Shown: in pieces, positions 204 to 43,924 of the stretch
How the letters are laid out: every line of letters starts with the position of its first letter
How positions within the stretch are numbered: the first letter of the stretch is position 1
DNA from: Escherichia coli
GTDB lineage: Bacteria > Pseudomonadota > Gammaproteobacteria > Enterobacterales > Enterobacteriaceae
Strand: one strand, 5' to 3'
Assembly: GCF_965641715.1 (NCBI RefSeq)
Contig: NZ_OZ282453.1
DNA: 64,000 nucleotides
Notes under the pieces: model-generated
The model's database searches: none
What the model saw: only the letters and a program-made list of their open reading frames with translations
Told to the model about the DNA's origin: nothing
Program-made: the position numbers and the translations under genes

Positions 204-903
204 ACGTTAACAACGACCGACTCTTCACTGTGCAATATTGTGTCAGGTAGTCACTCTGCGTTCAATTCCAGGGGCCGCTTTGAGCGAGAAAGAGCGGACT
301 TATCTGTACAAGGGGACTATCCAGCAATGGAGATCACCCAAAAGAAAAAACTACCTGGCTCCCTCAACAACCTTCATCCGGGAATTTAGCCTCAATCAAC
401 ATTTTTATATCTGTCAGGTTACTTCATTATGAAAACCGATCAATATCGTTGTTTTTGTTGCAATAGTAGAATACGCGTATTTATTCCTCCATTTCTATTA
501 ATAACGGCCATAAACTGTTCATTTCACTGATATTTAAAATATGCATCCTTTTCAAGCTGTTCAGCGGCGTAAGAAAACGTATTAAATATGAATTCGACGA
601 TTTAACCATTTCTGTCTGATTGGTAATCATCTGTGATTAATGCTGGTCTATTGATTACGCCAGCATTAACCGCTTAGGGATGTATTCTTCCTGTTGATAT
701 ACAGCCTCGAAAAAGAGAGAAAATAAAACTGTGTCCAATATTACTTTACTACTCCAGACCGAAGCATCGGTAGAATTAGCAGAACGACTGGTACAGAAGG
801 TGGGTATAGCGTCATTTGTCAGGTATTCCATTGCCTGACAAATGACAATTTTGAGTCAATAGACGTGCTTCTTGATCATGTCTTAAAAATTATACCATGA
901 GCC

Positions 904-1182
904 TTATGAAGCATTATTTTTACTGACTGGTGTTAACTTTGCTATCATATAAACTCTGTTCTTAAAAAACGCGCCCAGAATTTTATATGATTTCCCTTGT
1001 TTTTCTGCCTGTAAAGAAATTTCTTTTTCAGTGCTGTTAATGGTTGAACCGACGGCAGTAATCGTTTTGGCGACGCTACTGAATGATAATAAAGACAGTG
1101 CAACCACAACAATTAAAGAACAGATAGTATTCACGCTAATTCTCCTGACAATTGAGAGGATGAGTTTTATATATAAAGGCAT
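904..1182 (-). CDS. small secreted DUF1471-like (YhcN/BhsA-type) protein; true start probably internal
   Basis: hydrophobic N-terminal segment then short mature domain typical of small enterobacterial periplasmic stress proteins; AT-rich. Confidence 0.3.
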   Translation of the reverse strand: MPLYIKLILSIVRRISVNTICSLIVVVALSLLSFSSVAKTITAVGSTINSTEKEISLQAEKQGKSYKILGAFFKNRVYMIAKLTPVSKNNAS

Positions 1183-1347
1183 TAAACATGAGTCATGTTT
1201 ACTTCCTGTGAAAATAATCTTTCTGTAATTAAACCCTCATCTCCTTCGGGGTGAGCAATACATAATGCATCTTGCTATGAAAAACACAGGGATATATAAA
1301 TCTTCCTTCTGACCTATTTAATAAAACGTGAATGTAAAAATTATTCT

Positions 1348-2085
1348 TCAGTTTGCAGATGCAGTGGGTCTGATGGTAATTTCGGTTGTATCAACGCTTT
1401 CGGGAGATTCAATAATATGCCTTACCGCACGGGCAATATCCGCAGGTTGAAGTGCAACAGAACGGTAGGCGTCCATTGCCTTCATGGTTTCCACATGGGT
1501 AATGGTTGAAGCCAGTTCACTTTCGACAACGCCAGGATTTACGCAGGTCACACGGATTTTCGAGCTTTCCTGCCGTAAGCCATCAGAAATAGCCCGTACT
1601 GCAAATTTGGATGCACAATAGACTGCGCCTGTGGGCACAACAGAAAGGGCACCAATAGAACCAAGATTGATTATCTGACCGGAACCCTGTGCTTCCATCA
1701 CCGGAAGTACAGCGCCAATTCCCCACAGTACACCTTTGATATTCACGTCAATAGTGAGCTCCCATTCATCCTGTTTTCCTGCTGCAAGCGGTGAAAGCGG
1801 CATAACGCCCGCATTATTGATAAGAACATCAACTCGCCCCCAGCTATCCAGCGCTACTTGCACGAAATCTGCCATGGACTGTCGGTCTGTGACATCCAAC
1901 TCCCGAGCTTTAGCAATTCCTCCTGCGCGGCAAATTTCGGTTGCAATGGCTTCGATACGCTCAACTCTGCGTGCTCCCAGTAAAGTCTTTGCACCTGTCG
2001 TTCCCAGCTCTCTGGCAATACCTTCCCCAATACCACTTGATGCGCCGGTGATTAATATGACCTTATCCATTACGTTCTCCTTCAA
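1348..2085 (-). CDS. short-chain dehydrogenase/reductase (SDR) family oxidoreductase; likely start at MDKVILITG (2070)
   Basis: TGASSGIG Rossmann motif, NNAG, catalytic Y-x3-K (YCASK). Confidence 0.85.
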   Translation of the reverse strand: MKENVMDKVILITGASSGIGEGIARELGTTGAKTLLGARRVERIEAIATEICRAGGIAKARELDVTDRQSMADFVQVALDSWGRVDVLINNAGVMPLSPLAAGKQDEWELTIDVNIKGVLWGIGAVLPVMEAQGSGQIINLGSIGALSVVPTGAVYCASKFAVRAISDGLRQESSKIRVTCVNPGVVESELASTITHVETMKAMDAYRSVALQPADIARAVRHIIESPESVDTTEITIRPTASAN

Positions 2086-2168
2086 ATGTGTTCGGAGAGA
2101 GAATAGAACTTTATGATTGGTTCCAGTATCCTGCTTTCAATGTACTCAGTGGTTAGCGGCATTAAACA

Positions 2169-3068
2169 ATGAAAATCGATCTTAATCTTTTACCCATTTT
2201 TATCGCGGTAGCAGAAGAAAGTAATTTTAGTAAAGCCGCCGCACGACTGGGCGTTACCCGTTCAGCGGTCAGTCAGGGAATAAGACGCCTTGAAGATGCA
2301 TTCGGGACAATGCTTGTAATGCGGACCACGCGCTCAGTTAATTTGACGGAAGCGGGAGAACGGCTGCATAAATCGTTGTCATTACCTTTATCCGGTATTG
2401 AGACAGCGTTCGAAGAGATGGTTTCTGATCATGTACCACGTGGACTTCTCAGAATCGCAGTGACGTCAATAGCTGAAGAATTTCTTTCAGGTCCGCTAAT
2501 CGCTTCGTTTGCAGCAGCCAATCCAGCCGTTACGCTTGATATTGTTGTCACGGATGAGGAATTCGATATCGTGGCCGCAGGTTACGATGCTGGCGTAAGG
2601 CTCGGAGAGGTCATTGAAAAAGACATGATTGCTGTGCCCCTTACCGGCAGTCAGCGTGAAATGGTCGTTGCCTCTCCCTCCTATCTCGCAGCCAACAGCA
2701 CACCTGTTCATCCGCGTGAACTTGTGAATCATAAGTGTATCGGCTGGCGTCAGTCCCCGGAGGTTGCGCCTTATCGCTGGCCATTTGAAGAAAACGGGAG
2801 AGCTTTCGACCTTGCGATTGAACCGCAGATTACGACTAATGATCTGCGTCTGATGTTGAGGCTGGCTCTTGCCGGCGGAGGAATAACAATTGCCACTCAG
2901 GAAACTTTCAGGCCGTATATTGAAAGCGGTAAGCTTGTATCTCTGCTTGATGACTTTCTTCCACAATTTCCGGGCTTCTATCTGTATTTCCCACAGCGTC
3001 GCAATATTGCACCAAAGCTCCGCGCCCTGATTGACCACGTCAAGGAATGGCGGCAGCAATTGGCTTAA
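2169..3068 (+). CDS. LysR-type transcriptional regulator
   Basis: N-terminal HTH (FSKAAARLGVTRSAVSQGIRRLE) and LysR substrate-binding domain; divergent from the SDR gene. Confidence 0.85.
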   Translation: MKIDLNLLPIFIAVAEESNFSKAAARLGVTRSAVSQGIRRLEDAFGTMLVMRTTRSVNLTEAGERLHKSLSLPLSGIETAFEEMVSDHVPRGLLRIAVTSIAEEFLSGPLIASFAAANPAVTLDIVVTDEEFDIVAAGYDAGVRLGEVIEKDMIAVPLTGSQREMVVASPSYLAANSTPVHPRELVNHKCIGWRQSPEVAPYRWPFEENGRAFDLAIEPQITTNDLRLMLRLALAGGGITIATQETFRPYIESGKLVSLLDDFLPQFPGFYLYFPQRRNIAPKLRALIDHVKEWRQQLA

Positions 3069-3193
3069 ATGTCTGCACCTGCATTGCCTGATGTCAGAAC
3101 AGTATTTTGATTAATTGCCAGGGTTACAATGGCATAAATACGGCACAGGAGGAAACGTGGTGTATTTAAATATGGGGTAACTACTTGATTTAA

Positions 3194-3211
3194 ATGGTGC
3201 CGATAATAGGA
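3194..3211. repeat. attR of P4-like satellite: 18-bp direct repeat (atggtgccgataatagga) of the thrW 3' end
   Basis: identical 18-mer at 14821..14838 inside the tRNA-Thr 3' end. Confidence 0.6.
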
Positions 3212-3391
3212 ATAAAATAAAACAATAACATACTGAAAAATATACAAAAAAGAAACACACCGTTAAGTAATGCCCCCGAAAATGCCCCCATAATAGATGC
3301 CGCAGTAAGTCGACTTGTCCCAAGGACTGGTAAGTAATGTCAATAGCGGGAACAAAGAGACATTACTTACCGAGAATGGAATCCATTTAGG

Positions 3392-4621
3392 TTATGCTGG
3401 CCAATCCCACTGCTGATAGGCAGAGAATAGGCGCGTGAGCTCAGCAGGCGCAAGAATATCAACAATATTAGCTCTGTAGCTATGCGATTTACCTAATGGA
3501 ACATTTTCGAAATGATTAGCTTGATAAGGATTAAAATCGTGAAGCTCACCTAATGTTGAGATATCGGTATTAATAGTTTTAAGCCAAGAAACAAGAATTA
3601 CTTTTGCCCCTGTTCTCTGTATGTAAGCTCTTGCCGATTCAAAACTATAGCCTCGAGTTGTTATATCATCTATAAGAAGTACTGTTTTACCAGGGCCTAA
3701 AGGTGGTTTTTTATAGGTAGTTCTAGGATTTCTGTGTGGCTGAGAATTAAGACAAATTGTATTAAGTTGATTGCAATGGTCAATTGCAACTCCCTCATTT
3801 CTTGCTTTTTGAGATTTTTTGGAAGTCGTATGCCTTAAAATAAGATCTGGGATATACGTCTTGCGAAAACATTTTCCAAATATTGAAATCGCTTCATCCA
3901 TGATATTATTCCCATATCCTTGCTTATGCCCTGGATAAACACTAACATAATTAATCATCTTATGAATGCCACTAAAATAGAGACTGGATATTAAGGCACT
4001 CGTCCAAAATTCAGGATGGCCTAATCCATGTTTAGCAGCAGCACGAGCATCTTCAGAGTAAAGAGTATACTCTTCCTTCATGGTGCTGAAAGGAGCAAGT
4101 GCATAGAAATTAAAATCACCATCGTGAATTTCATGACACCAAAGATGCTCTCTTAAACAGAAGGTATCTATAAATCTAGCAATATCTTTAGGGGTTGAAA
4201 ACTCGAAACCATAATCTGTTTTGTCTGCCCACCATGTAGCTCTTAAAAAGAGCAACTCACCATTAACTGCTGTTTGCATGTCGTTTATCGAAGCACCAAT
4301 GTACAAAGTTTCTGTACTTTCCCAACCCATCAAATCAAGGACATATTTTGTAGCATCCGCAGTTGGCTTCCCTGGAATGCTCTTATCTTTCGCTCGACAA
4401 AGATATTTAAATTCTCCCCAATGCTTTTGTAACACATCCTCTAAAGGGGTTCTTTCATCTCCGACAACCCAACCCCTGTTAGTGAATACAACAAACTCGA
4501 TCTTTTTAGTTCTGAAATATCTAATTAATTTATCTACCTCTGCAAAGATTTCGCTATCGATCTTTCCCTTAGGCACAAGAATATCTTCAACACTAAGAAT
4601 CACACCCTTAATTTTGCTCAT
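3392..4621 (-). CDS. satellite cargo: protein with N-terminal Rossmann-like (possibly degenerate HAD-like) domain and C-terminal type I phosphoribosyltransferase domain; ShosT-like candidate
   Basis: PRTase signature VLLIDDITTRG near C-terminus; N-terminal YIGASINDMQTAVNG resembles HAD motif IV; AT-rich; 10-nt gap to upstream gene. Confidence 0.55.
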   Translation of the reverse strand: MSKIKGVILSVEDILVPKGKIDSEIFAEVDKLIRYFRTKKIEFVVFTNRGWVVGDERTPLEDVLQKHWGEFKYLCRAKDKSIPGKPTADATKYVLDLMGWESTETLYIGASINDMQTAVNGELLFLRATWWADKTDYGFEFSTPKDIARFIDTFCLREHLWCHEIHDGDFNFYALAPFSTMKEEYTLYSEDARAAAKHGLGHPEFWTSALISSLYFSGIHKMINYVSVYPGHKQGYGNNIMDEAISIFGKCFRKTYIPDLILRHTTSKKSQKARNEGVAIDHCNQLNTICLNSQPHRNPRTTYKKPPLGPGKTVLLIDDITTRGYSFESARAYIQRTGAKVILVSWLKTINTDISTLGELHDFNPYQANHFENVPLGKSHSYRANIVDILAPAELTRLFSAYQQWDWPA

Positions 4622-4631
4622 TTCATCTTCC

Positions 4632-5696
4632 TTAGAGATCTAAGCTCTGCTGTATCGGCTGTGCTTTTAAATCATGATTATTATTCAAAATATAATTACT
4701 CATCTCATTCAATTCAAAAGGCATTAAAAAAGATAAAGAATTTCTATTTTCTTCAGCAAACTTCAATTCTGGTCTACTTTCATACGTAGTAGGAAGATAT
4801 GGACTCGCTATCTTTTTTGCATACTTAAAAGCATAATCAACAGTATGTGATGTTCCACTTTTAATATTCCATTCGACTGGTATTAGTGAATCACATAAAG
4901 CAGCCTGGATTCTGTTACGCCTTACAAAATTTTCTGCGCTATATGTTTGTTCAGGTAGATACTCGGTAACGATAGCCCCACCATTAGAAACTATTGCTCG
5001 ATATAACTCTTTAGAACCTTTCGGATACTCGACAAAAATCCCATTACCCAATACCGCAATAGTTGGAATGCCATATCTCAGCGATTCATAATGACAACAT
5101 TGATCTATTCCTGTCGCCAAACCACTGACTGTTGAAACATCTTTAGAATATAGAGAAGAAACAATCAGTTTTACTAGAAAAATACCATCATCCGTTGGCT
5201 TTCGTGTCCCCACAATTGCAACAGATTTCTTATTAAGAAGTTCATAATTACCATGAACAAAAATCCAAAATGGCGGATCGCTTATGTTCTTTAATGATTG
5301 AGGAAATGTAGCCTGATCATAAAAGGTGAGCACAATACCATTTTTATTGAGTTCACGAGCTCTCTCCAGTCCCTTAGACCAAAGGTCTTGTTGAAATGTT
5401 TCCCAAGATATATTTTTAGGCAAGGAAACTCTTAGATATCCTGCCAAGGCATCAGCTGTATTATCTTTTAATATATTCTTAAATCCAATTTTGGATTGAT
5501 AGATTTTGCGAAGCGTCCAGTAACCAACCCCCTTTAGACAAGTTAAGGCAAGAAACGCAATAATTTCATTTTTCCAAAACTCTCTAACTTCAGTGTAATC
5601 TTTATATTCCATTTTACGTTTGCCTTTTAGATTACAACCCGTACTCAACACAAAAAATTTAGAAAATTGTTGCCAAAAGCATATTATAAATAGCAT
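4632..5696 (-). CDS. satellite cargo: DprA/Smf-like (SLOG-type Rossmann) protein; ShosA-like candidate; probable start at MEYKDY (5612)
   Basis: DprA core motifs VAIVGTRKPT, GLATGID, TIAVLGNGI, YPKGSKELYRAI, FVRRNRIQAAL; AT-rich. Confidence 0.55.
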   Translation of the reverse strand: MLFIICFWQQFSKFFVLSTGCNLKGKRKMEYKDYTEVREFWKNEIIAFLALTCLKGVGYWTLRKIYQSKIGFKNILKDNTADALAGYLRVSLPKNISWETFQQDLWSKGLERARELNKNGIVLTFYDQATFPQSLKNISDPPFWIFVHGNYELLNKKSVAIVGTRKPTDDGIFLVKLIVSSLYSKDVSTVSGLATGIDQCCHYESLRYGIPTIAVLGNGIFVEYPKGSKELYRAIVSNGGAIVTEYLPEQTYSAENFVRRNRIQAALCDSLIPVEWNIKSGTSHTVDYAFKYAKKIASPYLPTTYESRPELKFAEENRNSLSFLMPFELNEMSNYILNNNHDLKAQPIQQSLDL

Positions 5697-5980
5697 CTTA
5701 CCGCAGATTTGTGAAGCAACAACATCCCTAGGAGAAACCTTAACCTAGCGGGACAACTTACTGACCAATCCTCAGCTAGCTCATTGAATTGCCCCCATAT
5801 CGCACAGCCCCGCACGCCTGCCCGCTTCGCTTAACAGACTGGTTTTCATGCACCTCATAAATCGTCTCAGAAGCCACCAAACAAGGGCTTTCTCGTCAAA
5901 AATGGTGCATAAGACTCATGCGTTTTCATGCGCCATAGACATGCACTCATGCGCTCTCAGGCCAGCCAGGGAAAAGGTGT

Positions 5981-6005
5981 TAAAAATCCCGGTACTCGAC
6001 CGGGA
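5981..6005 (-). terminator. Rho-independent terminator downstream of delta/ogr-like gene
   Basis: stem tcccggtactcgaccggga followed by U-run on the minus-strand transcript. Confidence 0.5.
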
Positions 6006-6027
6006 TTACGTAGGCGTTTTTTTCTAA

Positions 6028-6309
6028 TCAGACAGGAATCTGCTGACGGCTTGACAGTTTTGACGCGGAGCCATAGCGATTGAGCGTTTGCTGTTGTTTT
6101 ACCGGGGTTTGTGATTTGTCTGGTTCCTGTTCATTGCGCCGGGGTTTCATGATTATCTTATCCACACTCTCCAGTGCCGTAAATGTGCAGGAACATTCCA
6201 GATTCTGGCACTGATACCACGAGCGTTTAACTGACGGAGCTTCATAGGCTGCTGTTCTGGCGTGTGCAACTGTACCGCATTCCGGACATTTAAGTGCCAT
6301 TAATATCAC
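6028..6309 (-). CDS. Ogr/Delta-family zinc-finger late transcription activator
   Basis: CPECG...HARTA...YQCQNLECSCTF matches the Ogr/Delta C4 zinc-finger pattern. Confidence 0.8.
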   Translation of the reverse strand: MILMALKCPECGTVAHARTAAYEAPSVKRSWYQCQNLECSCTFTALESVDKIIMKPRRNEQEPDKSQTPVKQQQTLNRYGSASKLSSRQQIPV

Positions 6310-6857
6310 TCCTGTATATCGTTAATGTCATTCAGGCGTTGCTGAAAACGCAGATGTTGTGCCGGGGTGTAAGAGCCCTGGCAATCACGAATCATACTGG
6401 GGTCAGGCATCAAACCGGATTCATCCAGGATCTCACGATAATCCCCGGCAATTTCAGGCGGTGTTATTGCCAGCTGGCGAACCAGAGCACTGCGTAATAT
6501 ACGGGACGCAACGTCAACCCCTCCGCGCCCCTTCAGGAACGGAGCCAGTGCAGATGTCAGGGCTGCCCCATTCGCCTGCATAAAATTGCTGAGAGCGGCT
6601 TCTGTGCAGGCCTCCATCAGTAAATGCTGCGAGTAAATGCATTCGCGCGCAGCACAGTTAATTTGCCATTTCAGCACATCCAGACGTTCCCGCAGGAATT
6701 CGAGCTGTCGGGCATAATCTGCTGGTTTTTCTGTGGCAGCGAGGAGAGATGTTATCTGTTGTTCAACGGCTTTTCGGCTCTCACTATGTCTGGCCCACAG
6801 AATACGGGCATTCCGAAAACTGGTAAGTACCTGGTCAGGTGTGCCTCGGGCCGTCAT
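6306..6857 (-). CDS. psu: Psu-like (polarity suppression / capsid decoration) protein
   Basis: 183 aa, recalled similarity to P4 Psu (KWQ.N.AA, FMQ.NGAAL.SALAP, FTPAQ); translationally coupled to sid and delta. Confidence 0.55.
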   Translation of the reverse strand: MTARGTPDQVLTSFRNARILWARHSESRKAVEQQITSLLAATEKPADYARQLEFLRERLDVLKWQINCAARECIYSQHLLMEACTEAALSNFMQANGAALTSALAPFLKGRGGVDVASRILRSALVRQLAITPPEIAGDYREILDESGLMPDPSMIRDCQGSYTPAQHLRFQQRLNDINDIQE

Positions 6858-7597
6858 ACTGCTTTCTCCTTCTCAGCAAGTTCCTGACGAACCTTTATTT
6901 TATGCATAGCTGCTGGAGAGAGTTGATTACTGAAATCCAGACGCGCCGCATAATCCGGGGCAACTCCCGCCAGTTTAAACACCGGGTCCTGTTCAGGCAT
7001 CGCATCGTTAGCCAGAGCCGGTCTGGTGATATGTTTATGAATAAAGTCTTTCAGCACTGTGTCCGGGTCATTAACTGAATTCACCACACCCACAACGGCA
7101 CTGGCTTCCCGGCCCATTGTGGATTTAAGCAGGCTCAGCGTCTGAATAAGCGCTTTTCCATGCGACTGCATAAAATCCTCCCAGATTTGTTTTGCGCGAA
7201 TATCCACAAGAATGTTATGCGCGTGGATATACTTTCCGGCTAATTCCGCAGCTTTCTGCGGCAAAAGTGCATTTTCGCTTTCCTGAGCCGCCAGCAGCTC
7301 ATCAAAATCCTCAAGCGTTTCTCGTCCCAGCGCAATTTCCGTGCGCAGTTTTTTCATTTCCTTTGAGACCACGCCCTGACTTTCACGAAACAGCGTGCGC
7401 CACTCCTCATTCAGTGTATTCGTCGTGGATTCCATTTCAGCGCGACGCTGGCGGATTGTCGCAATATTATCCGCTGCCGCTTTCTGCTGACGACGTGCTT
7501 CAAGCCATGCGTTTCTGGCTGTGTTCATGGTTTCCAGTGCCCGCTGCGTTACAGCCGGAAAAGTGGAAAGGTTGTTATTCACTGCGGTGTTGTTCAT
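6854..7597 (-). CDS. sid: Sid-like capsid size-determination (external scaffold) protein
   Basis: 247 aa helical protein first in the late operon upstream of psu/delta, size and position as P4 Sid. Confidence 0.5.
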   Translation of the reverse strand: MNNTAVNNNLSTFPAVTQRALETMNTARNAWLEARRQQKAAADNIATIRQRRAEMESTTNTLNEEWRTLFRESQGVVSKEMKKLRTEIALGRETLEDFDELLAAQESENALLPQKAAELAGKYIHAHNILVDIRAKQIWEDFMQSHGKALIQTLSLLKSTMGREASAVVGVVNSVNDPDTVLKDFIHKHITRPALANDAMPEQDPVFKLAGVAPDYAARLDFSNQLSPAAMHKIKVRQELAEKEKAV

Positions 7598-7631
7598 GAC
7601 TTCTCCTGTCGGGTTGGTTCGTTACGTCAAT

Positions 7632-7687
7632 TGTGTCGTGGCTGACACAAGCACACTATCGGTGCTCAGTGTGTGGTGGCTGGCACA
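7632..7687 (-). promoter_or_regulatory. Two TGT-N12-ACA dyads (Ogr/Delta-type activator sites) upstream of sid
   Basis: TGT(7632-7634)-N12-ACA(7647-7649) and TGT(7670-7672)-N12-ACA(7685-7687), 35-90 bp upstream of sid start. Confidence 0.45.
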
Positions 7688-7775
7688 ACGGGCGCTTGCG
7701 GTTATTCAGACGTGGCTATGAAAGCCAGCCAGATAAAAATGCCCACTGTTTCAGTCTGCTTTATGTCCCTGATGC

Positions 7776-7964
7776 GGTGGAACAGGTGAAACATGTGTTA
7801 CAGCTTTGTTTTATAAATCATTTATATACACTGCACCGGTGGAACATCGCGGGTAACAAGGTGGAACAGCGGATTGGCTGGCGTTACATCTGTTCCACCT
7901 CACTATTTCAGAAGGTGGAACAGGTTCAGCCCCTGTAAAATACGGTTGTTCCACCTGTTTCACC
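7776..7964. repeat. Iteron cluster: 6 perfect GGTGGAACA/TGTTCCACC 9-mers plus 2 variants in both orientations (crr/ori-like)
   Basis: copies at 7776, 7838, 7860, 7891(inv), 7914, 7947(inv); variants at 7785 and 7956; directly downstream of primase gene. Confidence 0.55.
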
Positions 7965-7998
7965 TGTTACCCTTAATAAATAAGACTCACGCAAAGCC

Positions 7999-10671
7999 TT
8001 AACCCGGCACCTCGCTGTTGAAGACATAGAGCCTGCGGGGATTCATCTCTGGCGGGCGAATGGTTGTCTGGAGTTTGCCATCAGTGGAGGGCAGCAGGTA
8101 TCCACGATCTGCGCACAGACGCGCCACCTTGCGCGGGTCAAATCCCCTGCAGATTTCTTTCCAGCCGGACGGCATGACATAAAACGTAGTGACAGCTTCC
8201 GTGCCCTGCGCGGTACTGCCTTTCTCCACCCTGCGCCAGCCCACCATATTGGCGGGGCGGTTGCGCTCGTCATACCAGTCTGCAAAGCGGCTGTACTGAT
8301 TCGCGGTAAAGAAACTGCGAACCTGCTCCAGTGCGGCGATATCTTCCTGATTGGCGGTGTGCCCGCGCTCTTTCAGCCATGCGTTCAGGCAGACGCGGGT
8401 TGCCCGCAATGCTTCACCCTCAGGCCAGCCGGTGATACCCTGACGGGTTGCCAGTTCACCTGCCATCGCCACCAGTGCAAAGCGGTTCACAGCCCGGCCC
8501 ACCTGATTGCCTGCATCTTTCGGAGTCAGGGCGGCAGCATATTCCTTCATCAGCGATTTTGCCTGTGCCGTTAGTCCGTTAAGATCAGCGGTCAGTGCTT
8601 TCAGCCACTCCCGGAACGGCGAACCGTAGTAGCAGGACGTGGCCCATTCAAGATGCTCTGCCAGAGCCTTGCCGCTGTCGAAGCCGTGCAGCTCCTCAAA
8701 AACGCCAAACTTCCCGGAATCGCTGGGGATCTGGATCATCCTGACTTCCATCCCGGCAAAAGTACGCTCACCGGCCTTTGCCGCATGTTCGGTCAGAGAT
8801 AACTCGCCAGTTGAAAAGAACAACAGGCGCCACTGCTTACGGGTACGCAGTTCACCGTCCGTACCGGCACGACCCTTGCCCTGACCGTTTGCCAGCATGT
8901 AGGCGATATTGCCTGCCTCGCGTCCGTCAACTTCCCGGATCTCATCAAGCATCATGGCGGCATCGTTGCGGCGGCTGGCACATCCCTCCAGCGCGTTGCC
9001 GGTGGCCCGCCATGTCTGCCAGTAGTCAGGCCCGCCGCAGACGGAGGTTGCCGCTTTCATGGTGGTGGTCTTACCGTCTGTCGATTCCCCTTTGAGGTGG
9101 TAGCCGCCGCCGTCCATACCAACCAGCCGTAACAGTGGTGCAGCAAAGGCCAGGCTGACAGCAAATGCCACGCGGGAGTTGCCGGTACAGTAGCGGGATA
9201 CGTTCTCCCGCCATTCCTCTGTTGTGCCCGACACGCGGAAATCACGCCCCTGCACGGAAGTGGTCTGGAGAATGACACCCTCTGCACCTTCACCGCTGAC
9301 CTCATCCTGCAGGACGTAAACCTGACCATGCCAGCCAGTACGGCTGACGCAGGTCACGCGACGTTCCGGTTTACACAGTGAGATATATTCCATCAGGCGT
9401 GCGCGTGCCTCACCGGTGGTGCTGATATAAGACAGCCCGTTAACAAGCAGTACCCGGCGCAGTTCCTCACCACTGCCGCTCAGCATTTCCATCGGCATCG
9501 CCCAGCGGCGACGCTCACCCCACGTATCTTCCCATTCCAGCAGTCGTCCGAAGTTACCGCCATCGGCATCGCAGGTGATTGCCGTCACGCGCAGCGGGCT
9601 GCATATTTTGACGTTCTGGATCTCCGTCTCACCGTTGCGCTGTACCTGCTTTTCATACCAGAGATATTCCTGGGTAAGACGGAACCCGTGCGGCAGTTGC
9701 GTGCGGCCTTCCCCGCACAGTACCAGACCGTTGCGAAAGGCTTCACGGGCACGGGTAATACCGTGCTCCCGATGAAAGTCATTCCAGTCAGCCTTAATCT
9801 CTCCTGGTGGCAGCGTCATCCAGCCGCCAACAGCTTTTGCCGCCCGTTCAGCAAAGGCTCTGCCGGGATTCTCCCCCCCGTCCTGAAAATCGTTATCACC
9901 GGCGATGATAATTTTTACCTCAGGCCAGCGTGCCCGCAGCGACTGCGCCACATTGGGCAGGTTGCCCGCAGATATGGCAGCCACTACGCATCCGGCAGTG
10001 AGCTGGCTTACCGTCAGCGCCGTAGCGTAACCTTCGGTAATCACCACCTGTACCGGTGGTTCAGACGGTAACGGGCTGAGCGACACAAACGCGCCTTTCA
10101 TCGTGCTGCCGGGCAGTATGCTTTTTTCACCCGTCGGGGCGATAAGCTGTGCACCGGTCACGGCTCCGGTGTTGGTCGTGAGTGGTAACAGCAGGGAACC
10201 AGCAGGAAAATCCTTACCGCTGATATGCTGCACGCTTCCGGTCAGAGAGGCCGGGTATCCGGCGAACCCTTTTCCTGCCAGATAGGCACTTTCTCCCGTG
10301 TGGCTCTCTTTCATCAGCGTCGCCACGGTAAGGCTCATGTCGCGTTTAGGGGCTTTTTGTCTGGCAGGCTTAACAGGCAGTTCCTGCACATCCGGCACAT
10401 TAAGCACCTGCGCCACCTGCTGCGCAGCCTTTCTGACGTTGTAGCCGGTTACGAGCTTAACCAGATCCAGACCGTCACCATTGCCACACTGGCTGCAGAT
10501 CCACGTCCCGCGCCCGTCAAGGTCATCGAGGCGAAAACGATCCTTGCCCCCACATTTCGGGCAGGGACCGTGCCTGCCGTTTTCAGGTACATCAATACGC
10601 AGCATATGCAGAATAACGGGCCATTTCCCCCGCGCGGCGGCTGAAATCTGCGTAACCGTCTGTATTGTCAT
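7999..10671 (-). CDS. P4 alpha-like primase/helicase (zinc finger + toprim + D5-type NTPase)
   Basis: N-terminal CPKCGG...CSQCG, Walker A GESTDGKTT, 890 aa. Confidence 0.8.
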   Translation of the reverse strand: MTIQTVTQISAAARGKWPVILHMLRIDVPENGRHGPCPKCGGKDRFRLDDLDGRGTWICSQCGNGDGLDLVKLVTGYNVRKAAQQVAQVLNVPDVQELPVKPARQKAPKRDMSLTVATLMKESHTGESAYLAGKGFAGYPASLTGSVQHISGKDFPAGSLLLPLTTNTGAVTGAQLIAPTGEKSILPGSTMKGAFVSLSPLPSEPPVQVVITEGYATALTVSQLTAGCVVAAISAGNLPNVAQSLRARWPEVKIIIAGDNDFQDGGENPGRAFAERAAKAVGGWMTLPPGEIKADWNDFHREHGITRAREAFRNGLVLCGEGRTQLPHGFRLTQEYLWYEKQVQRNGETEIQNVKICSPLRVTAITCDADGGNFGRLLEWEDTWGERRRWAMPMEMLSGSGEELRRVLLVNGLSYISTTGEARARLMEYISLCKPERRVTCVSRTGWHGQVYVLQDEVSGEGAEGVILQTTSVQGRDFRVSGTTEEWRENVSRYCTGNSRVAFAVSLAFAAPLLRLVGMDGGGYHLKGESTDGKTTTMKAATSVCGGPDYWQTWRATGNALEGCASRRNDAAMMLDEIREVDGREAGNIAYMLANGQGKGRAGTDGELRTRKQWRLLFFSTGELSLTEHAAKAGERTFAGMEVRMIQIPSDSGKFGVFEELHGFDSGKALAEHLEWATSCYYGSPFREWLKALTADLNGLTAQAKSLMKEYAAALTPKDAGNQVGRAVNRFALVAMAGELATRQGITGWPEGEALRATRVCLNAWLKERGHTANQEDIAALEQVRSFFTANQYSRFADWYDERNRPANMVGWRRVEKGSTAQGTEAVTTFYVMPSGWKEICRGFDPRKVARLCADRGYLLPSTDGKLQTTIRPPEMNPRRLYVFNSEVPG

Positions 10672-11051
10672 ACTTCCCCCTGATACAACGTCACACCAGT
10701 ACTGCAGAAGTCATCAAAGGTCGCCGGAAGCGTGCGGTACATCTCCGCCATTACTTCACAGCCGCGCGCGGTCAGTACCGGCGGCGCGGTCAGCAGTGAC
10801 GGCTCCAGCATGTCAGTCAGCAGTGCCAGCGCGGCAGCGGCGCCCTGTGCTTCGCCGTACTCGTTAATCAGTGCGCACTCGATATGCAGCGCAATGGCCA
10901 TTTCAATACGCTCCACCGTCAGGCTGTGCGGACCATACTGATCACTGCCAGTTTCGTTCAGCATTTTCTGCCGCCATGCTGAAGCAATAGCCCGCCGGTA
11001 AAGCGCGGTTGTCATTTCTGCCGGGAAAATGGAAACCTGCGGCTGGTTCAT
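10668..11051 (-). CDS. hypothetical satellite protein
   Basis: ORF translationally coupled (4-nt overlap) to primase gene. Confidence 0.4.
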   Translation of the reverse strand: MNQPQVSIFPAEMTTALYRRAIASAWRQKMLNETGSDQYGPHSLTVERIEMAIALHIECALINEYGEAQGAAAALALLTDMLEPSLLTAPPVLTARGCEVMAEMYRTLPATFDDFCSTGVTLYQGEV

Positions 11052-11332
11052 CTGGCACCTCCTTCAATCAGTGCACAGCTGTGCGCAATATCCGTCAAAT
11101 CTGCCCGCAGGTACTCCATCAGCGCGGCGACACCATGCGCACAGCCAGCGTCCAGTGCTCCGGCCTGAGACGGGTATTCAGAAAAGAGAAGCTGGAGCAT
11201 GTCGCAGGCATTTCTTGCGCGGGTCAGCTTTCCGAAACTGTCCTCTGACAACCCATAGGCAAAAGCACCGGTATTGTGTTTTTCAGGCAAAGTGTGGCCC
11301 TGAGCACCGTTGTGCCCGTTTGAAATATTCAT
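11048..11332 (-). CDS. hypothetical satellite protein
   Basis: ORF coupled by 4-nt overlap to downstream gene. Confidence 0.35.
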   Translation of the reverse strand: MNISNGHNGAQGHTLPEKHNTGAFAYGLSEDSFGKLTRARNACDMLQLLFSEYPSQAGALDAGCAHGVAALMEYLRADLTDIAHSCALIEGGAR

Positions 11333-11363
11333 CGTGGATTACTCCGTTTTCAGCGGTATTTTG

Positions 11364-11724
11364 TCAGAGAAACTTTGAATAGTGACCGTCGTCAGGCTCA
11401 GCAGAACGCCGTATGCTACGCTCCCGCCAGCGGATAAATAGCACAGACGGATGCAGTGTCAGCGGGCCGGAACCACTACCGCCTGCAGGAGCTGGTGCAG
11501 GCTTAAAGAGCGGTACATCAAACAGGCGCGTATACCGCTGTTCAAACCATGCCAGAGGGCAGGAAGAAAGCTGGTTGTCGCTGTCATGACGTATCAGCAC
11601 TTCACAGCTGAATTCAGGATTAACCAGCGCCACAGAGGGCGAGGCTTCAATTAATCGGATAATCGTGACCGTCCAGCCACGTTCATGCTGCCAGCGTTCG
11701 CCGGGGTGCGGATAATTACGCATG
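11364..11724 (-). CDS. hypothetical satellite protein (start MRNYPHPG at 11724)
   Basis: start ATG overlaps stop of upstream small ORF (ATGCGTAA). Confidence 0.35.
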
Positions 11725-11892
11725 TTCACCTCCGCAGGGAATGCGCCCGGCAAAGCTCAGTACATAATCCGGGGCAAGTCTTCGCCGCGCTGACCGCTCG
11801 TTATCTGCGGTGATCCTTAACATCACAGGACGGGCATTGCGTTGACTGCGGTTGATCGCCGCAAATAACCAGGTACACTTCTGTTTAGCCAT
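11716..11892 (-). CDS. small protein, possibly host cell division inhibitor Icd-like (58 aa)
   Basis: hand-translated MAKQKCTWLFAAINRSQRNARPVMLRITADNERSARRRLAPDYVLSFAGRIPCGGEHA; below the 60-aa cutoff of the ORF track. Confidence 0.35.
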   Translation of the reverse strand: MAKQKCTWLFAAINRSQRNARPVMLRITADNERSARRRLAPDYVLSFAGRIPCGGEHA

Positions 11893-11983
11893 CTTCGTTA
11901 CCTCTTATAACGGTTGGTTAAATGCCCGATTTGTGTTCCCGCACAATCGGGCATTGCTTTTACAAGCGAACTATACTTACAAT

Positions 11984-12027
11984 GGTAATTACCATGTAGT
12001 CATCATATTCCAGGGTAATTACCATGT
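11984..12027. promoter_or_regulatory. Tandem operator-like repeats GGTAATTACCATGT (each containing palindrome GGTAATTACC), 30 bp apart
   Basis: copies at 11984-11997 and 12014-12027; second overlaps the ATG of the small + strand ORF. Confidence 0.45.
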
Positions 12028-12197
12028 CAACACCACAAGAGAAACGTTCCCCACCATTCCAAATGCGTCTTACCGACGATTTTAGGTTGCAACTCGAAAA
12101 AGAAATGCGCAAAGATGGAGATAGCGCGTTGGCAACTTGGATTAAAAGAATTTTACGTAAAGAACTACAATCACGCGGGATTGACCCTAAAGGTTAA
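12024..12197 (+). CDS. small ribbon-helix-helix-like DNA-binding protein (57 aa)
   Basis: hand-translated MSTPQEKRSPPFQMRLTDDFRLQLEKEMRKDGDSALATWIKRILRKELQSRGIDPKG; strand-helix-helix pattern; only + strand gene in the satellite. Confidence 0.4.
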   Translation: MSTPQEKRSPPFQMRLTDDFRLQLEKEMRKDGDSALATWIKRILRKELQSRGIDPKG

Positions 12198-12229
12198 TCA
12201 GTTAAATATTACTAACTATCAATTAAGGC

Positions 12230-12520
12230 TTAGGGAGTAGGTGATAATCTATTCCCTTTATTAATTGCTCTTGCCTTATTTCTCATCCCCTCAAACTGTT
12301 GACCTGAGTTTTCTTCAAACCCATCTCGCCACTTATAATAATCAGCAGCGCGCCATCGGGACATCCGACCTATTTTTATAGGTTTTGGAAAGCGATTCAG
12401 AGAAATCAATCGATAAATCCATTTGTCACTTAATAAACAATCGGAAGTAATAAACTTCATATCGATCAGAGAATCCATTGAAGGTCGTTGCAAAGTAGTA
12501 TTATCATGTTTAGATAACAT
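12230..12520 (-). CDS. alpA: AlpA-family phage transcriptional regulator
   Basis: KFITSDCLLSDKWIYRLISLNRFPKPIKIGRMSRWRAADYYKWRDGF matches AlpA-type HTH proteins. Confidence 0.7.
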   Translation of the reverse strand: MLSKHDNTTLQRPSMDSLIDMKFITSDCLLSDKWIYRLISLNRFPKPIKIGRMSRWRAADYYKWRDGFEENSGQQFEGMRNKARAINKGNRLSPTP

Positions 12521-12645
12521 TCATCATTCTCCGTTTATCTAAGTCTATTGGCTTCAACACGGAAAATTAAAACATAGGTTATAAATGAGAAAAATGTGAC
12601 TAATGAAAAAAATCCAAAATCATTAGTCACAATAATTGTTAACAT

Positions 12646-13470
12646 TTAGTTAAACTTAATGTTTTTCATGCAACTACGTAGCAAGCTAACAACAGTATCA
12701 TAGCTCAAAGGTGGTTCTCCGGTCTTAGGCCAGAACTCACTGGCATGTTGAAAAAGATAATCAGCTATCGCTGCTGGACTCTCTCTTCTTAGCCTCATAT
12801 CACGATGATAGAGCGAAATAATAGCCATGAGTATTTCAGTTCGAGGAACAGCATGTTTTTGTTTTTGCGCCTCAGATTGTGATTTATATTTATTGGCGTT
12901 TTTTATCCGTTTTTGTTCGCATAAGACTATATCAATGAATTTTTGAATCTGTACCTTTGTAATCCACAAAACCTCAAAAAGATAATAATTTTCTTTTTCA
13001 TCATAATTTACATAAAGAATTACCTTACAATTTATATTAGGCGTACCCGCCAGTAGAAAATGAATAGGCCAGGAATCCGGTTGCCCCTCATGCTTAACTA
13101 ACAGATCTTTATATTCATAATCAACAGCCCATAAACCGGATATAAAGCATCGAATAAAACCATTTTTATCAATTAAATTATTTTCATCAGGGATTCTTAT
13201 AGAGCTTAAGTCTGACAACATAATATTGCCATTTCTATCTCGTGGTAAATATTTCAGATTAGATAAGAACTCATCCAGTTGACCATCAATCTTCAAACCA
13301 CATGAAACATCATACTCATCATCATGGAATTCCATGCATAGCTCTACATCTCGTTCTCTGGCAAACCAGAGTATATCCTTTTCACTACAACCAATTTTTT
13401 CTGAAGCTTCATCCAACTGGTAGTAATCTCTGAGCAGAGAATCAGTATTATTAATTTTTAAAATATTCAT
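12646..13470 (-). CDS. hypothetical AT-rich protein of unknown function, translationally coupled to integrase
   Basis: 274 aa; ATGA start/stop overlap with int; low GC relative to flanks; no motif recognised. Confidence 0.4.
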   Translation of the reverse strand: MNILKINNTDSLLRDYYQLDEASEKIGCSEKDILWFARERDVELCMEFHDDEYDVSCGLKIDGQLDEFLSNLKYLPRDRNGNIMLSDLSSIRIPDENNLIDKNGFIRCFISGLWAVDYEYKDLLVKHEGQPDSWPIHFLLAGTPNINCKVILYVNYDEKENYYLFEVLWITKVQIQKFIDIVLCEQKRIKNANKYKSQSEAQKQKHAVPRTEILMAIISLYHRDMRLRRESPAAIADYLFQHASEFWPKTGEPPLSYDTVVSLLRSCMKNIKFN

Positions 13471-14726
13471 TTATGAGTACCAATTAGCTCAGATAAATAA
13501 TTAGCATACCATTGCATCATTTCTCTTCTCCCTTCGAGATATTGGGCATGGTTATAAATTCCACGAATAGAGTTTTTGTCCGAATGAGCAAGCTGGGTTT
13601 CAATCCAAGCGCTGTTAAATCCTTTCTCATGTAGAATTGTACTCATCGTATGCCTGAAACCATGTCCCGTAACACGCCCTGCATATCCAATACGTTTAAA
13701 CACCTGATTGATGCTTGCTTCACTCATAAATTTGCTAGGATCGTTGCGTCCAGGGAACATCAGCGGGTAGTTCCCAGTTAGTTCTTTCAAACTTTTGAGA
13801 TGGGATAATGCTTGTTTTGGTAACGGGACAATATGGCTCCTACGCATTTTCATACGTTCTTTTGGGATCTCCCACACCGCATTATCAAAATCCACCTCTC
13901 GCCACTCACCTGCTCGTAGTTCTCCAGTTCGTAGACCTGTCAGGATAAGTAAATGCGCCCCCAACAATACAATTGGACTTCCTGAATAAGAATTAAGGGC
14001 ATTAAAGAACTCCGGTAGTTCGTTGGCTTTGAGGAATGGATAGTGGACTGCTTCATGTCCTTGCATCGCACTGGCAAGATCCGGTGCCGGATTGTAGATT
14101 GCCCTACCCGTTACGATGGCATAGCGAAAAACTTCACCGCATCGCTGACGGACTTTCTTCGCTTTCTCCATAGCGCCTCGAGCTTCTATCAACCTCAGAA
14201 CTTCAAGCAGTTCAAGGGGCTGAATATCAGCTATAGGTCTGTGCCCAATATGCGGAAAAATGTCTTTCTCAAATGCCTCAATGATGTCGGAAGCATAGCC
14301 CTCAGACCATTTGGATGATTTCATTTTGTGCCACTCTAACGCCACTTCTCTGAATGGGTTAAGTGTCTCAATCGCTGCGTTTAAAGCCTGCTTTTTGGCT
14401 TTTTTGACTTCGCCGGGATCTTCACCTGCTGCGAGTAGTTTCTTTGCGTCTTCTCGTTTTTGTCTGGCATCAGCAAGTGTGACTGTTGGATAAACACCAA
14501 AGGACAATCGTTTCTCTTTACCAGCAAAACGGTATTTCATACGCCAGTAACGCGAGCCATTAGGTTCGACCTGAAGGTATAGGCCACCTCCATCAAACAG
14601 CTTATAGCTCTTCTCTTTTCCTTTCGCAGCTTCAACCTTGCGGGCATTCAGCATCATTGGGGGCACATTTCCTAGACCGAACAGAACATGCCCCTGATTG
14701 TGCCCCCAACCGCGTGTTGATTTCAA
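13467..14726 (-). CDS. int: P4-type tyrosine integrase (probable start at MLNARKV, 14654)
   Basis: KEKSYKLFDGGGLYLQVEPNGSRYWRMKYRFAGKEK N-terminus and C-terminal HGFRHT...Y catalytic region; adjacent to tRNA-Thr. Confidence 0.9.
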   Translation of the reverse strand: MKSTRGWGHNQGHVLFGLGNVPPMMLNARKVEAAKGKEKSYKLFDGGGLYLQVEPNGSRYWRMKYRFAGKEKRLSFGVYPTVTLADARQKREDAKKLLAAGEDPGEVKKAKKQALNAAIETLNPFREVALEWHKMKSSKWSEGYASDIIEAFEKDIFPHIGHRPIADIQPLELLEVLRLIEARGAMEKAKKVRQRCGEVFRYAIVTGRAIYNPAPDLASAMQGHEAVHYPFLKANELPEFFNALNSYSGSPIVLLGAHLLILTGLRTGELRAGEWREVDFDNAVWEIPKERMKMRRSHIVPLPKQALSHLKSLKELTGNYPLMFPGRNDPSKFMSEASINQVFKRIGYAGRVTGHGFRHTMSTILHEKGFNSAWIETQLAHSDKNSIRGIYNHAQYLEGRREMMQWYANYLSELIGTHK

Positions 14727-14820
14727 GAGACAAGGGTTGACCTCAAACGTATGAAAACAACGTAATATATATGTTTTTAAATGATTTTGTTGATGTGGGT
14801 TGACTTGGGAAAACTAGGTG

Positions 14821-14838
14821 ATGGTGCCGATAATAGGA
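14821..14838. repeat. attL core: 18 bp at thrW 3' end, repeated at 3194..3211
   Basis: exact 18-mer match. Confidence 0.6.
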
Positions 14839-14897
14839 GTCGAACCTACGACCTTCGCATTACGAATGCGCTGCTCTACCAACTGAGCTATATCGGC
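14822..14897 (-). tRNA. thrW: tRNA-Thr (anticodon CGU)
   Basis: reverse complement reads GCCGATATAGCTCAGTTGGTAGAGCAGCGCATTCGTAATGCGAAGGTCGTAGGTTCGACTCCTATTATCGGCACCA. Confidence 0.9.
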
Positions 14898-42588: not shown

Positions 42589-42594
42589 TCTCCC

Positions 42595-43010: not shown

Positions 43011-43082
43011 TTTCCGGCTCTTAAGAAATATTTACGCACATGCACCAGCATTACAGAAAATAAAACCTGCGATACATTTTAA

Positions 43083-43859: not shown

Positions 43860-43924
43860 AAAACAAAGAAAAAAAAACCATCAGTACAACATAATTTAGA
43901 TTATAGAAAGCCAACCTCTTCATC

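What the first reader, a model, noticed from the sequence alone, without database searches (positions are those of the whole stretch)
3392..5696. Two-gene cargo in the satellite hotspot: DprA-like protein plus HAD-like/PRTase protein (Shosha-type candidate defence system)
Between the delta/psu late genes and the att site of the P4-type satellite lie two co-directional AT-rich genes 10 nt apart. The upstream one has a DprA/Smf core (GLATGID, TIAVLGNGI, FVRRNRIQAAL). The downstream one ends in a type I phosphoribosyltransferase signature (VLLIDDITTRG) and has an N-terminal Rossmann-like domain whose YIGASINDMQTAVNG resembles HAD motif IV, while the usual DxD nucleophile motif looks degenerate. 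A PRTase toxin paired with a DprA-like partner is the architecture described for ShosTA/Shosha, and this position is the variable defence hotspot of P4-like satellites. The N-terminal domain and the gene order are not something I can confirm as canonical, so this may be a variant.
Basis: partly seen in the sequence, partly recalled or inferred. Interest (0 to 1): 0.85.

Follow-up and report, generated by a model that had tools for sequence, protein, structure and literature searches.

The report
ShosTA defence pair in P4-like satellite
The two genes are an ordinary, intact copy of the already described ShosTA toxin-antitoxin anti-phage system, carried as the only cargo in the known variable defence slot of a P4-like phage satellite in E. 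coli.

Summary
Two co-directional minus-strand genes lie 10 nt apart, at 36.5% GC against 55% in the satellite core. They sit between the satellite's delta gene and its distal att repeat. The interpretation also holds. PADLOC models give ShosA E=3e-90 and ShosT E=3e-94 over their full length. Both proteins match the solved ShosA and ShosT crystal structures (E=2e-71 and 2e-88).

- The characterised ShosT has the same N-terminal HAD-like hydrolase (pyrophosphatase) domain followed by a PRTase domain.
- The characterised locus has the same order, shosA then shosT.

The residues shown by mutagenesis to matter most are kept: ShosT D331/D332, R285, K280 and H240, and ShosA R139, R234 and K200.

This copy is diverged from the tested E. 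coli APEC O1/KTE181 pair (38% identity for ShosT, 46% for ShosA). It belongs to a clade spread through Gammaproteobacteria. Near-identical pairs occupy the same delta-proximal slot in Klebsiella and Salmonella satellites.

One correction: shosA most likely starts at 5612 (326 aa), not 5696.

Verdict: a known system in a known hotspot, detectable with standard tools. Function in this copy is inferred, not tested. Interest is low.

The parts
4632..5612 (-). shosA: DprA-like antitoxin, 326 aa, with an N-terminal SAM-like domain and a DprA Rossmann domain. The open frame extends upstream to 5696, but that extension is probably not translated.
   Evidence: PADLOC ShosA PDLC03961 E=3.3e-90. Pfam PF02481 5e-58. 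PDB ShosA 9vzo/8zva E=2e-71, aligned over residues 40-319 of the long ORF. 46% identical to the characterised ShosA. PGAP start in the identical RefSeq gene WP_001567470.1. The upstream extension is not conserved in Salmonella.
3392..4621 (-). shosT: toxin, 409 aa. The N-terminal HAD-like hydrolase/pyrophosphatase domain ends at about residue 155 and the C-terminal non-canonical PRTase domain starts at about residue 156. This boundary is inferred from the alignment to the reference boundary at 164/165. The PRPP loop is VLLIDDITTRG, with D318/D319.
   Evidence: PADLOC ShosT PDLC03012 E=3.1e-94, residues 4-408 on profile positions 6-426 of 427. PDB ShosT 8zvb E=2e-88. Pfam Hydrolase 2.2e-5 and Pribosyltran 0.015. 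38% identical to the characterised ShosT. Functional residues mapped.
4622..4631 (-). 10-nt shosA-shosT spacer carrying a Shine-Dalgarno-like AAGGAAGA before the shosT ATG; consistent with one operon.
   Evidence: Sequence TAAGGAAGATGAAATG read directly. The same 10-nt spacing is seen in the Klebsiella and Salmonella loci L003-L005.
5613..5793 (-). Cargo-specific upstream region, the presumed native promoter/leader of shosAT. No convincing sigma-70 consensus was found.
   Evidence: Only 9 E. coli genomes share it, whereas 5794-5900 is shared by 832. The promoter scan is no better than shuffles. It is partly conserved with the Klebsiella copy.
5794..6027 (-). Conserved satellite backbone between delta and the cargo. 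It probably contains the cos region, next to which the P4 hotspot is described as lying.
   Evidence: Window 5794-5900 matches 832 of 5426 E. coli genomes at 90-98%. The P2/P4 cos 19-mer was not found within 3 mismatches, so 'cos' is inferred only from Rousset 2022 (PMC9122126).
3194..3211 (+). Distal att repeat (the satellite end next to the cargo).
   Evidence: Exact 18-bp repeat of 14821-14838; 0 expected by chance.
14821..14897 (-). tRNA-Thr(CGT) at 14822-14897, whose 3' end carries the proximal att repeat (14821-14838).
   Evidence: ARAGORN; repeat search.
6028..14726 (-). P4-like satellite core: delta/Ogr 6028-6309, psu 6306-6857, sid-like 6854-7597, alpha primase 7999-10671, DUF5375 gene 10668-11051, AlpA 12230-12520, unknown 274-aa gene 12646-13470, integrase 13467-14726.
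   Evidence: PHROG hits. RefSeq annotation of the identical element in strain LR-64-2.

Best explanation
This is a ShosTA type IV toxin-antitoxin abortive-infection system, carried as the sole cargo of the delta/cos-proximal variable slot of an 11.6-kb P4-like satellite integrated at tRNA-Thr.

The mechanism below is taken from the characterised E. coli APEC O1/KTE181 homologue and is inferred, not shown, for this copy.
1. ShosT binds PRPP in its PRTase domain and transfers phosphoribosyl to an acceptor that is still unknown. Its fused HAD-like pyrophosphatase domain removes the PPi product.
2. This disturbs purine metabolism and leads to DNA damage or duplications, filamentation and death.
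3. ShosA does not bind ShosT. It is a dimeric ssDNA-binding DprA-like protein that recruits RecA and recombination functions to repair the damage, which keeps cells alive.
4. On infection ShosA activity is lost, and pre-made ShosT kills the cell before phage release. ShosA is unstable, so phage shut-off of host transcription (T7 Gp0.7) depletes it. Phage ssDNA or replication intermediates may also titrate it away from RecA.

Shown here: family membership, domain architecture, gene order, conservation of the key residues, and genomic position. Inferred: toxicity, neutralisation, phage protection and the trigger.
For: - PADLOC gives full-length ShosA (3.3e-90) and ShosT (3.1e-94) matches.
- Solved ShosT and ShosA chains match at 2e-88 and 2e-71.
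- The characterised pair is identical to the adjacent genes of phage 10W, in the order shosA then shosT, the same as here.
- ShosT residues whose mutation abolishes or reduces toxicity are kept: D331/D332 map to D318/D319, R285 to R274, K280 to K269 and H240 to H232. The phosphate contacts N53 and K92 map to N48 and K85. All except R274 are invariant in a 19-sequence family alignment (mutant data from PMC11961720 and PMC12961424).
- ShosA residues R139 and R234, essential for ssDNA binding, map to R137 and R232. The RecA contact K200 aligns to K198 by reading off the alignment. This K is in the conserved YPK motif.
- The mechanistic literature was read. Defence against T7 and lambda was shown for the P2-hotspot DprA+PRTase pair (PMC9122126).
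- The same clade, at 96% and 85% identity, sits directly after Ogr/Delta in Klebsiella and Salmonella satellites.
- In 2 of the 9 E. coli genomes carrying this allele, IS3 splits shosT while shosA stays intact. That is what one expects for a costly toxin.
Against: - No experiment exists for this allele. It is only 38% (ShosT) and 46% (ShosA) identical to the tested pair.
- Some reference residues differ. The ShosT phosphate contact R56 is W51 here, although W is the family consensus and R56A only marginally reduced toxicity.
- The ShosA dimer-interface residues L181/F182 are R179/Y180 here. R261 is D259, but R261E was tolerated in the reference. The RecA contact R206 aligns to Y204 by reading off the alignment.
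- The ShosA C-terminal tail, which confers instability in the reference, is not conserved in sequence. The transcription shut-off trigger therefore cannot be transferred with confidence.
- No clear promoter or terminator was detected.
- The two published mechanisms disagree in part on the trigger.
Confidence: 0.9

Rival explanations
1. The pair acts mainly as an addiction (post-segregational killing) module that stabilises the satellite in the chromosome, with little or no anti-phage role.
For: It is a toxin-antitoxin pair by homology, with an antitoxin that is unstable in the reference. It sits on a mobile element. No phage data exist for this allele.
Against: Homologues were shown to defend against T7, lambda and SECphi phages in three studies. 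The slot it occupies is the satellite's documented anti-phage hotspot. An integrated satellite needs no plasmid-type addiction. The two roles are not mutually exclusive.
Confidence: 0.07
2. The genes are a housekeeping or accessory DprA/Smf for DNA uptake plus a metabolic phosphoribosyltransferase/HAD phosphatase, not a defence system.
For: RefSeq names them 'DNA-processing protein DprA' and 'phosphoribosyltransferase'. There are weak NCBIfam matches to APRT, OPRT and phosphoglycolate phosphatase.
Against: The DprA equivalog models score below their cut-offs: TIGR00732 162 against 191, and PRK10736 131 against 495. The APRT model scores 17 against 224. The ShosA and ShosT models fit far better. 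The genes are AT-rich foreign cargo present in 9 of 5426 E. coli genomes.
Confidence: 0.01
3. It is a PsyrTA/RqlHI-type system, or a retron-type PRTase effector module, rather than ShosTA.
For: The PADLOC PsyrA model matches the DprA core (1.8e-24). PsyrT matches the PRPP loop only (E=0.043).
Against: The PsyrT match covers 36 residues of a 689-position model, and no helicase domain is present. No reverse transcriptase or other ORF lies in the 3212-5793 cargo. The ShosA and ShosT models score 216 and 304 bits higher.
Confidence: 0.01

Closest known systems
ShosTA of E. coli APEC O1 / KTE181, the P2-like prophage hotspot system. It is 'DprA+PRTase', plasmid pFR105, in Rousset 2022, and was studied structurally by Pu 2025 and Yang 2026 (PDB 8zva-8zvd, 9vzo, 9w2p, 9w2q).
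   Same: - Two genes in the order shosA then shosT.
- ShosA has SAM and DprA domains.
- ShosT has a HAD-like pyrophosphatase domain and a non-canonical PRTase domain.
- PRPP-binding and ssDNA-binding residues are conserved.
- It is carried next to the cos site in a variable slot of a P2/P4-family element.
   Different: - Identity is only 38% (ShosT) and 46% (ShosA).
- It is carried by a P4-like satellite rather than by the P2-like helper phage.
- R56 is W51, and the ShosA dimer-interface residues L181/F182 are R179/Y180.
- The C-terminal tail is diverged.
- ShosT is 15 residues shorter.
Gammaproteobacterial ShosT clade that includes Shewanella homologues. From my own knowledge, ShosTA was first named by Kimelman 2012 for a Shewanella pair.
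   Same: ShosT here is 53-56% identical to Shewanella, Vibrio, Photobacterium and Proteus proteins of 409-417 aa. The consensus TNRxW and the LIDD/VVDD PRPP loop are the same.
   Different: The host and the mobile-element context differ. I did not verify which Shewanella protein is the original ShosT.
PsyrTA / RqlHI
   Same: It has a DprA-like antitoxin and a toxin with a PRTase motif. It is also a TA system with a proven defence role.
   Different: PsyrT is a large protein matched by a 689-position model; only its PRPP loop matches here. There is no HAD-like domain relationship.
DprA/Smf of natural transformation
   Same: The Rossmann DprA fold, the ssDNA-binding arginines and the RecA partnership are shared.
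   Different: It scores below the DprA equivalog cut-offs. It is paired with a toxin and sits on a satellite.

Membership tests
ShosTA | The toxin matches the ShosT profile over its full length. | tested here: met
   PDLC03012 E=3.1e-94, residues 4-408 on profile positions 6-426 of 427. PDB ShosT E=2e-88 over residues 4-408.
ShosTA | ShosT has two domains: an N-terminal HAD-like hydrolase/pyrophosphatase and a C-terminal PRTase. | tested here: met
   Pfam Hydrolase matches residues 24-119 (2.2e-5) and Pribosyltran matches 293-342. The alignment to the crystal-structure sequence is colinear across both domains.
ShosTA | The PRPP-binding and catalytic residues needed for toxicity (D331/D332, R285, K280, H240) are present. 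| tested here: met
   They map to D318/D319, R274, K269 and H232. D318, D319, K269 and H232 are invariant in the family alignment.
ShosTA | The antitoxin is a DprA-like protein matching the ShosA profile, with a SAM-like N-terminal domain. | tested here: met
   PDLC03961 E=3.3e-90. PF02481 5e-58. PDB ShosA E=2e-71, aligned from chain residue 12, so the match covers the SAM domain.
ShosTA | The ShosA ssDNA-binding arginines R139 and R234, essential for neutralisation, are present. | tested here: met
   They map to R137 and R232. R261, dispensable in the reference, is D259 here.
ShosTA | The ShosA dimer interface (L181/F182) and RecA contacts (K200, R206) are present. | tested here: inconclusive
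   L181/F182 map to R179/Y180. K200 aligns to K198, and R206 to Y204 with an adjacent R; both were read off the alignment. The interfaces could have co-varied, and the RecA interface in the paper is an AlphaFold 3 model.
ShosTA | The two genes are adjacent and co-directional, with shosA upstream of shosT. | tested here: met
   The spacer is 10 nt and both genes are on the same strand. The reference locus in phage 10W has the same order, as do the Klebsiella and Salmonella loci.
ShosTA | ShosT is toxic, and ShosA neutralises it without binding it (type IV TA). | not testable with these tools
   The only indirect hint is that IS3 disrupts shosT, with shosA intact, in NCTC11121 and NCTC9966.
ShosTA | The pair confers phage resistance by abortive infection. 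| not testable with these tools
   This has been shown only for the 38%/46%-identical homologue.
P4-like satellite defence hotspot (Rousset 2022) | A P4-like backbone is present: integrase, alpha primase, sid/psu/delta and att repeats at a tRNA. | tested here: met
   PHROG hits. tRNA-Thr and an exact 18-bp att repeat 11.6 kb apart.
P4-like satellite defence hotspot (Rousset 2022) | The cargo lies in the variable region between the late genes/cos and the att end, and differs between otherwise similar satellites. | tested here: met
   Window 5794-5900 is shared with 832 E. coli genomes, but 3300-5793 with only 9. The cargo GC is 0.365 against 0.555 for the core. The cos sequence itself was not identified.
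PsyrTA | There is a full-length match to the large PsyrT toxin. | tested here: not met
   PsyrT gives E=0.043 over residues 309-344 only.
DprA (housekeeping, TIGR00732 / PRK10736) | The score is above the NCBIfam equivalog cut-off. | tested here: not met
   The scores are 162.1 against a cut-off of 191.15, and 130.6 against 495.

The most novel reading that the evidence does not exclude
This 38%/46%-identical ShosTA clade recurs as satellite cargo in E. coli, Klebsiella and Salmonella. It might differ functionally from the characterised P2-borne ShosTA. For example, it could have a different trigger or phage range, because the ShosA C-terminal tail, the dimer interface and one RecA-contact residue have diverged. 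It could also be tuned to spare or to exploit the P2-type helper that the satellite depends on. Nothing in the data requires this.
Probability: 0.15. Interest if true: 0.4.

Novelty: already known. Interest (0 to 1): 0.12.

Why it matters
It matters little beyond annotation. RefSeq labels these two genes generically ('DNA-processing protein DprA' and 'phosphoribosyltransferase'), and they can be relabelled shosA and shosT. The locus adds one more example of helper phages (P2 hotspot) and their satellites (P4 hotspot) carrying the same kind of defence system in diverged versions. The diverged allele could be useful for comparison, to learn which ShosA and ShosT features are essential. Examples are R56 against the family-consensus W, and the variable ShosA tail proposed to set antitoxin instability.

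Tried and rejected
- The canonical P2/P4 cos 19-mer (GGCGAGGCGGGGAAAGCAC) was not found within 3 mismatches. The 'cos-adjacent' placement therefore rests on the conserved backbone segment and on the literature.
- The sigma-70 promoter and intrinsic-terminator scan of 3150-6100 was no better than shuffles: 9 sites against 9.2 expected, and 0 terminators. No promoter is claimed.
- I searched the Rousset 2022 supplements for this exact pair and found nothing. The P4 table is truncated in the held copy, so absence is uninformative. The 2026 preprint on P2/P4 hotspots does not mention ShosTA in its main text.
- The housekeeping DprA/metabolic PRTase reading was considered and rejected on curated cut-offs.
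- PsyrTA and retron-effector readings were considered and rejected.
- I did not run structure prediction, because the sequence match to solved ShosT and ShosA structures (E about 1e-88 and 1e-71) already answers the domain question.
- PADLOC, PHROG and Pfam searches of the 274-aa gene next to the integrase found nothing.
Full report
**1. What is there**

Two ORFs lie on the minus strand: 5696..4632 (354 aa) and 4621..3392 (409 aa), 10 nt apart. The pair is AT-rich: GC is 0.365, against 0.555 for the neighbouring satellite core and 0.492 for the window. A Shine-Dalgarno-like AAGGAAGA precedes the downstream ATG.

The upstream ORF probably starts at the internal ATG at 5612, giving 326 aa. Three observations support this:
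- RefSeq/PGAP calls the identical gene from that codon.
- The experimentally studied ShosA starts at the equivalent position.
- The DNA upstream of that ATG is unrelated in the Salmonella copy, whereas the sequence from about 25 nt before the ATG onward is conserved.

**2. Surroundings**

The window is E. coli chromosome. PHROG profiles identify a P4-like satellite on the minus strand (RefSeq annotation of the identical element):

| Gene | Coordinates |
|---|---|
| integrase | 13467-14726 |
| AlpA | 12230-12520 |
| alpha primase | 7999-10671 |
| Sid-like | 6854-7597 |
| Psu | 6306-6857 |
| Ogr/Delta | 6028-6309 |

The only tRNA in the window is tRNA-Thr(CGT) at 14822-14897. Its 3' end, ATGGTGCCGATAATAGGA (14821-14838), is repeated exactly once, at 3194-3211, with 0 copies expected by chance. 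The element therefore spans about 3194-14838, or 11.6 kb. The two genes are the only ORFs of any length between delta and the distal att repeat.

Window 5794-5900 is shared at 90-98% with 832 of 5426 complete E. coli genomes. The stretch 3300-5793 is shared with only 9. The pair is therefore variable cargo attached to a conserved backbone. This matches the P4 hotspot described as lying next to cos (PMC9122126). I could not find the canonical cos 19-mer, so cos adjacency is inferred.

**3. Identity of the proteins**

- PADLOC-DB gives ShosA (PDLC03961, E=3.3e-90) for the upstream protein and ShosT (PDLC03012, E=3.1e-94, residues 4-408 on 6-426 of 427 profile positions) for the downstream one.
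- Pfam gives DNA_processg_A at 5e-58 for the upstream protein.
- For the downstream protein Pfam gives HAD-type Hydrolase at 2.2e-5 (residues 24-119) and a weak Pribosyltran match over the PRPP loop.
- Both proteins match solved structures deposited as ShosT (8zvb/c/d, 9w2p, 9w2q; E=2e-88) and ShosA (9vzo, 8zva; E=2e-71).
- The housekeeping alternatives fail their curated cut-offs. DprA TIGR00732 scores 162 against 191, PRK10736 scores 131 against 495, and APRT scores 17 against 224.
- PsyrT matches only 36 residues.

**4.

[quoted passage not shown] That domain resembles type III (HAD-family) inorganic pyrophosphatases and has measured PPase activity. The C-terminal PRTase domain covers residues 165-424 (PMC11961720; confirmed in PMC12961424).

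The crystallised ShosT is 100% identical to a gene of the P2-like Escherichia phage 10W. There the DprA-like gene (129-1178) directly precedes shosT (1180-2454). This is the same order as in the window. It is the 'DprA + PRTase' system from the P2 hotspot of E. coli APEC O1, which protected against T7 and lambda (PMC9122126).

The degenerate DxD motif is a family trait. In a 19-sequence alignment the corresponding positions are S10 (invariant) and D13 (nearly invariant).

**5. How similar it is, and whether it is intact**

The window proteins are 38% (ShosT, 161/421) and 46% (ShosA, 129/280 local; 134/320 global) identical to the characterised pair.

ShosT residues with experimental support map as follows. 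Of the conserved ones, all except R274 are invariant across the family.

| Reference residue | Window residue | Note |
|---|---|---|
| D331/D332 | D318/D319 | conserved |
| R285 | R274 | conserved |
| K280 | K269 | conserved |
| H240 | H232 | conserved |
| Y196 | Y188 | conserved |
| Q296 | Q285 | conserved |
| N53 | N48 | conserved |
| K92 | K85 | conserved |
| R56 | W51 | W is the family consensus (TNRxW); R56A barely affected toxicity |

ShosA residues map as follows (phenotypes). The K198 and Y204 assignments were read off the alignment by offset rather than output by the script.

| Reference residue | Role | Window residue |
|---|---|---|
| R139, R234 | essential ssDNA-binding arginines | R137, R232 (kept) |
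| K200 | RecA contact | K198 (kept) |
| R261 | dispensable in the reference | D259 |
| L181/F182 | dimer interface | R179/Y180 |
| R206 | RecA contact | Y204 |

The C-terminal tail shows no clear similarity.

Both reading frames are intact. The proteins look functional, but the details of dimerisation, RecA contact and antitoxin instability cannot be transferred with confidence.

**6. Distribution**

There are 349 homologues at E<=1e-10. They include identical E. coli proteins, a Klebsiella cluster at 96% identity (317 member sequences), and Salmonella at 85%. Cronobacter, Yersinia and Serratia are at 77-84%, Pseudomonas and Halomonas-type proteins at 65-69%, and Shewanella, Vibrio, Photobacterium and Proteus at 53-56%.

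In Klebsiella (L003, L004) and Salmonella (L005, L006) the pair has the same 326-aa plus 409-aa layout and the same 10-nt spacer. It sits directly after an Ogr/Delta gene, which itself follows a primase. These satellites carry a P2-capsid-like gene and Phage_ASH rather than sid/psu. The same cargo has therefore moved between satellite subfamilies.

In two of the nine E. coli genomes with this allele (NCTC11121 and NCTC9966), an IS3 splits shosT and leaves shosA intact. That is compatible with a costly toxin. It may represent a single event.

**7. Mechanism (from the literature; inferred for this copy)**

- ShosT binds PRPP; its acceptor substrate is unknown. It is toxic through its PRTase site, and the PPase domain assists. 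The result is a disturbance of purine metabolism, DNA duplications, filamentation and death.
- ShosA does not bind ShosT. It binds ssDNA, dimerises and binds RecA, and it promotes recombination that counteracts the damage.
- Two triggers are proposed. One is T7 Gp0.7-mediated transcription shut-off combined with an unstable ShosA. The other is ssDNA or replication intermediates that disrupt the ShosA-RecA interaction. The second fits the escape mutations found in SSB and primase-helicase genes.

**8. Verdict**

Both the observation and the interpretation are right. The suspected 'variant' features are the norm for the family. This is a known system in a known hotspot, and standard tools would label it. 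No part of its function was tested for this allele. Interest is low (0.12).

The most novel reading still open is a functional difference in trigger, phage range or helper compatibility for this diverged satellite-borne clade. I put that at about 15%.

Noticed in passing
window 12646-13470 (-): An AT-rich (about 33% GC) 274-aa gene overlaps the integrase stop codon, between int and alpA. It has no Pfam, PHROG or PADLOC match. A 26%-identical 265-aa homologue (E=3e-26) sits at the same position next to the integrase in the Klebsiella satellite L003 (906-1703). It looks like a fast-evolving, syntenic satellite gene of unknown function, possibly a second variable or accessory slot.
   Followed up: partly
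L008 (NZ_LR134220.1, strain NCTC11121) 1593-4083; the same in NCTC9966 (H6): An IS3 element is inserted in shosT, splitting it into 62-aa and 347-aa pieces, while shosA is intact. This looks like natural inactivation of the toxin gene. The two strains may share one event.
   Followed up: partly
L003/L004 (Klebsiella) and L005/L006 (Salmonella), about 1-11230: The same ShosTA clade (96% and 85% identity) is carried after Ogr/Delta by satellites that encode a P2-capsid-like protein (PF05125) and Phage_ASH instead of sid/psu. This points to cargo exchange between different P4-family satellite backbones. In L005 and L006 the primase gene is split into fragments, and in L006 shosA is called at 305 aa instead of 326.
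   Followed up: no
window 1-3193, compared with L001 13431-13769 and L008 1-1015: The chromosomal flank next to the satellite's distal att differs between strains that carry the identical satellite. The window has an intact LysR gene (2169-3068), an SDR oxidoreductase (1348-2085) and a 92-aa predicted secreted protein of unidentified family (904-1182). LR-64-2 has a truncated LysR after paoD. NCTC11121 has CP4-6-type genes (yafW/ykfI). This suggests rearrangements or tandem islands at thrW.
   Followed up: no
window 5613-5696 (-): The shosA reading frame stays open for 28 codons upstream of the likely start (MLFIICFWQQFSKFFVLSTGCNLKGKRK). This part is conserved in Klebsiella DNA but not in Salmonella, and it is absent from the characterised ShosA. 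It is probably leader or promoter DNA, not coding sequence.
   Followed up: yes
window about 20000-64000: The rest of the window is ordinary E. coli chromosome: frsA, pepD, dinB, lateral-flagella remnants including an flhA fragment, fadE and a gene for a Tle1-like phospholipase effector domain. From about 45.6 kb there is a type VI secretion cluster (tssC, tssF, tssK, tssI/vgrG). The first 3.6 kb of the 42-64 kb chunk (42001-45648) had no match in the best three records.
   Followed up: no
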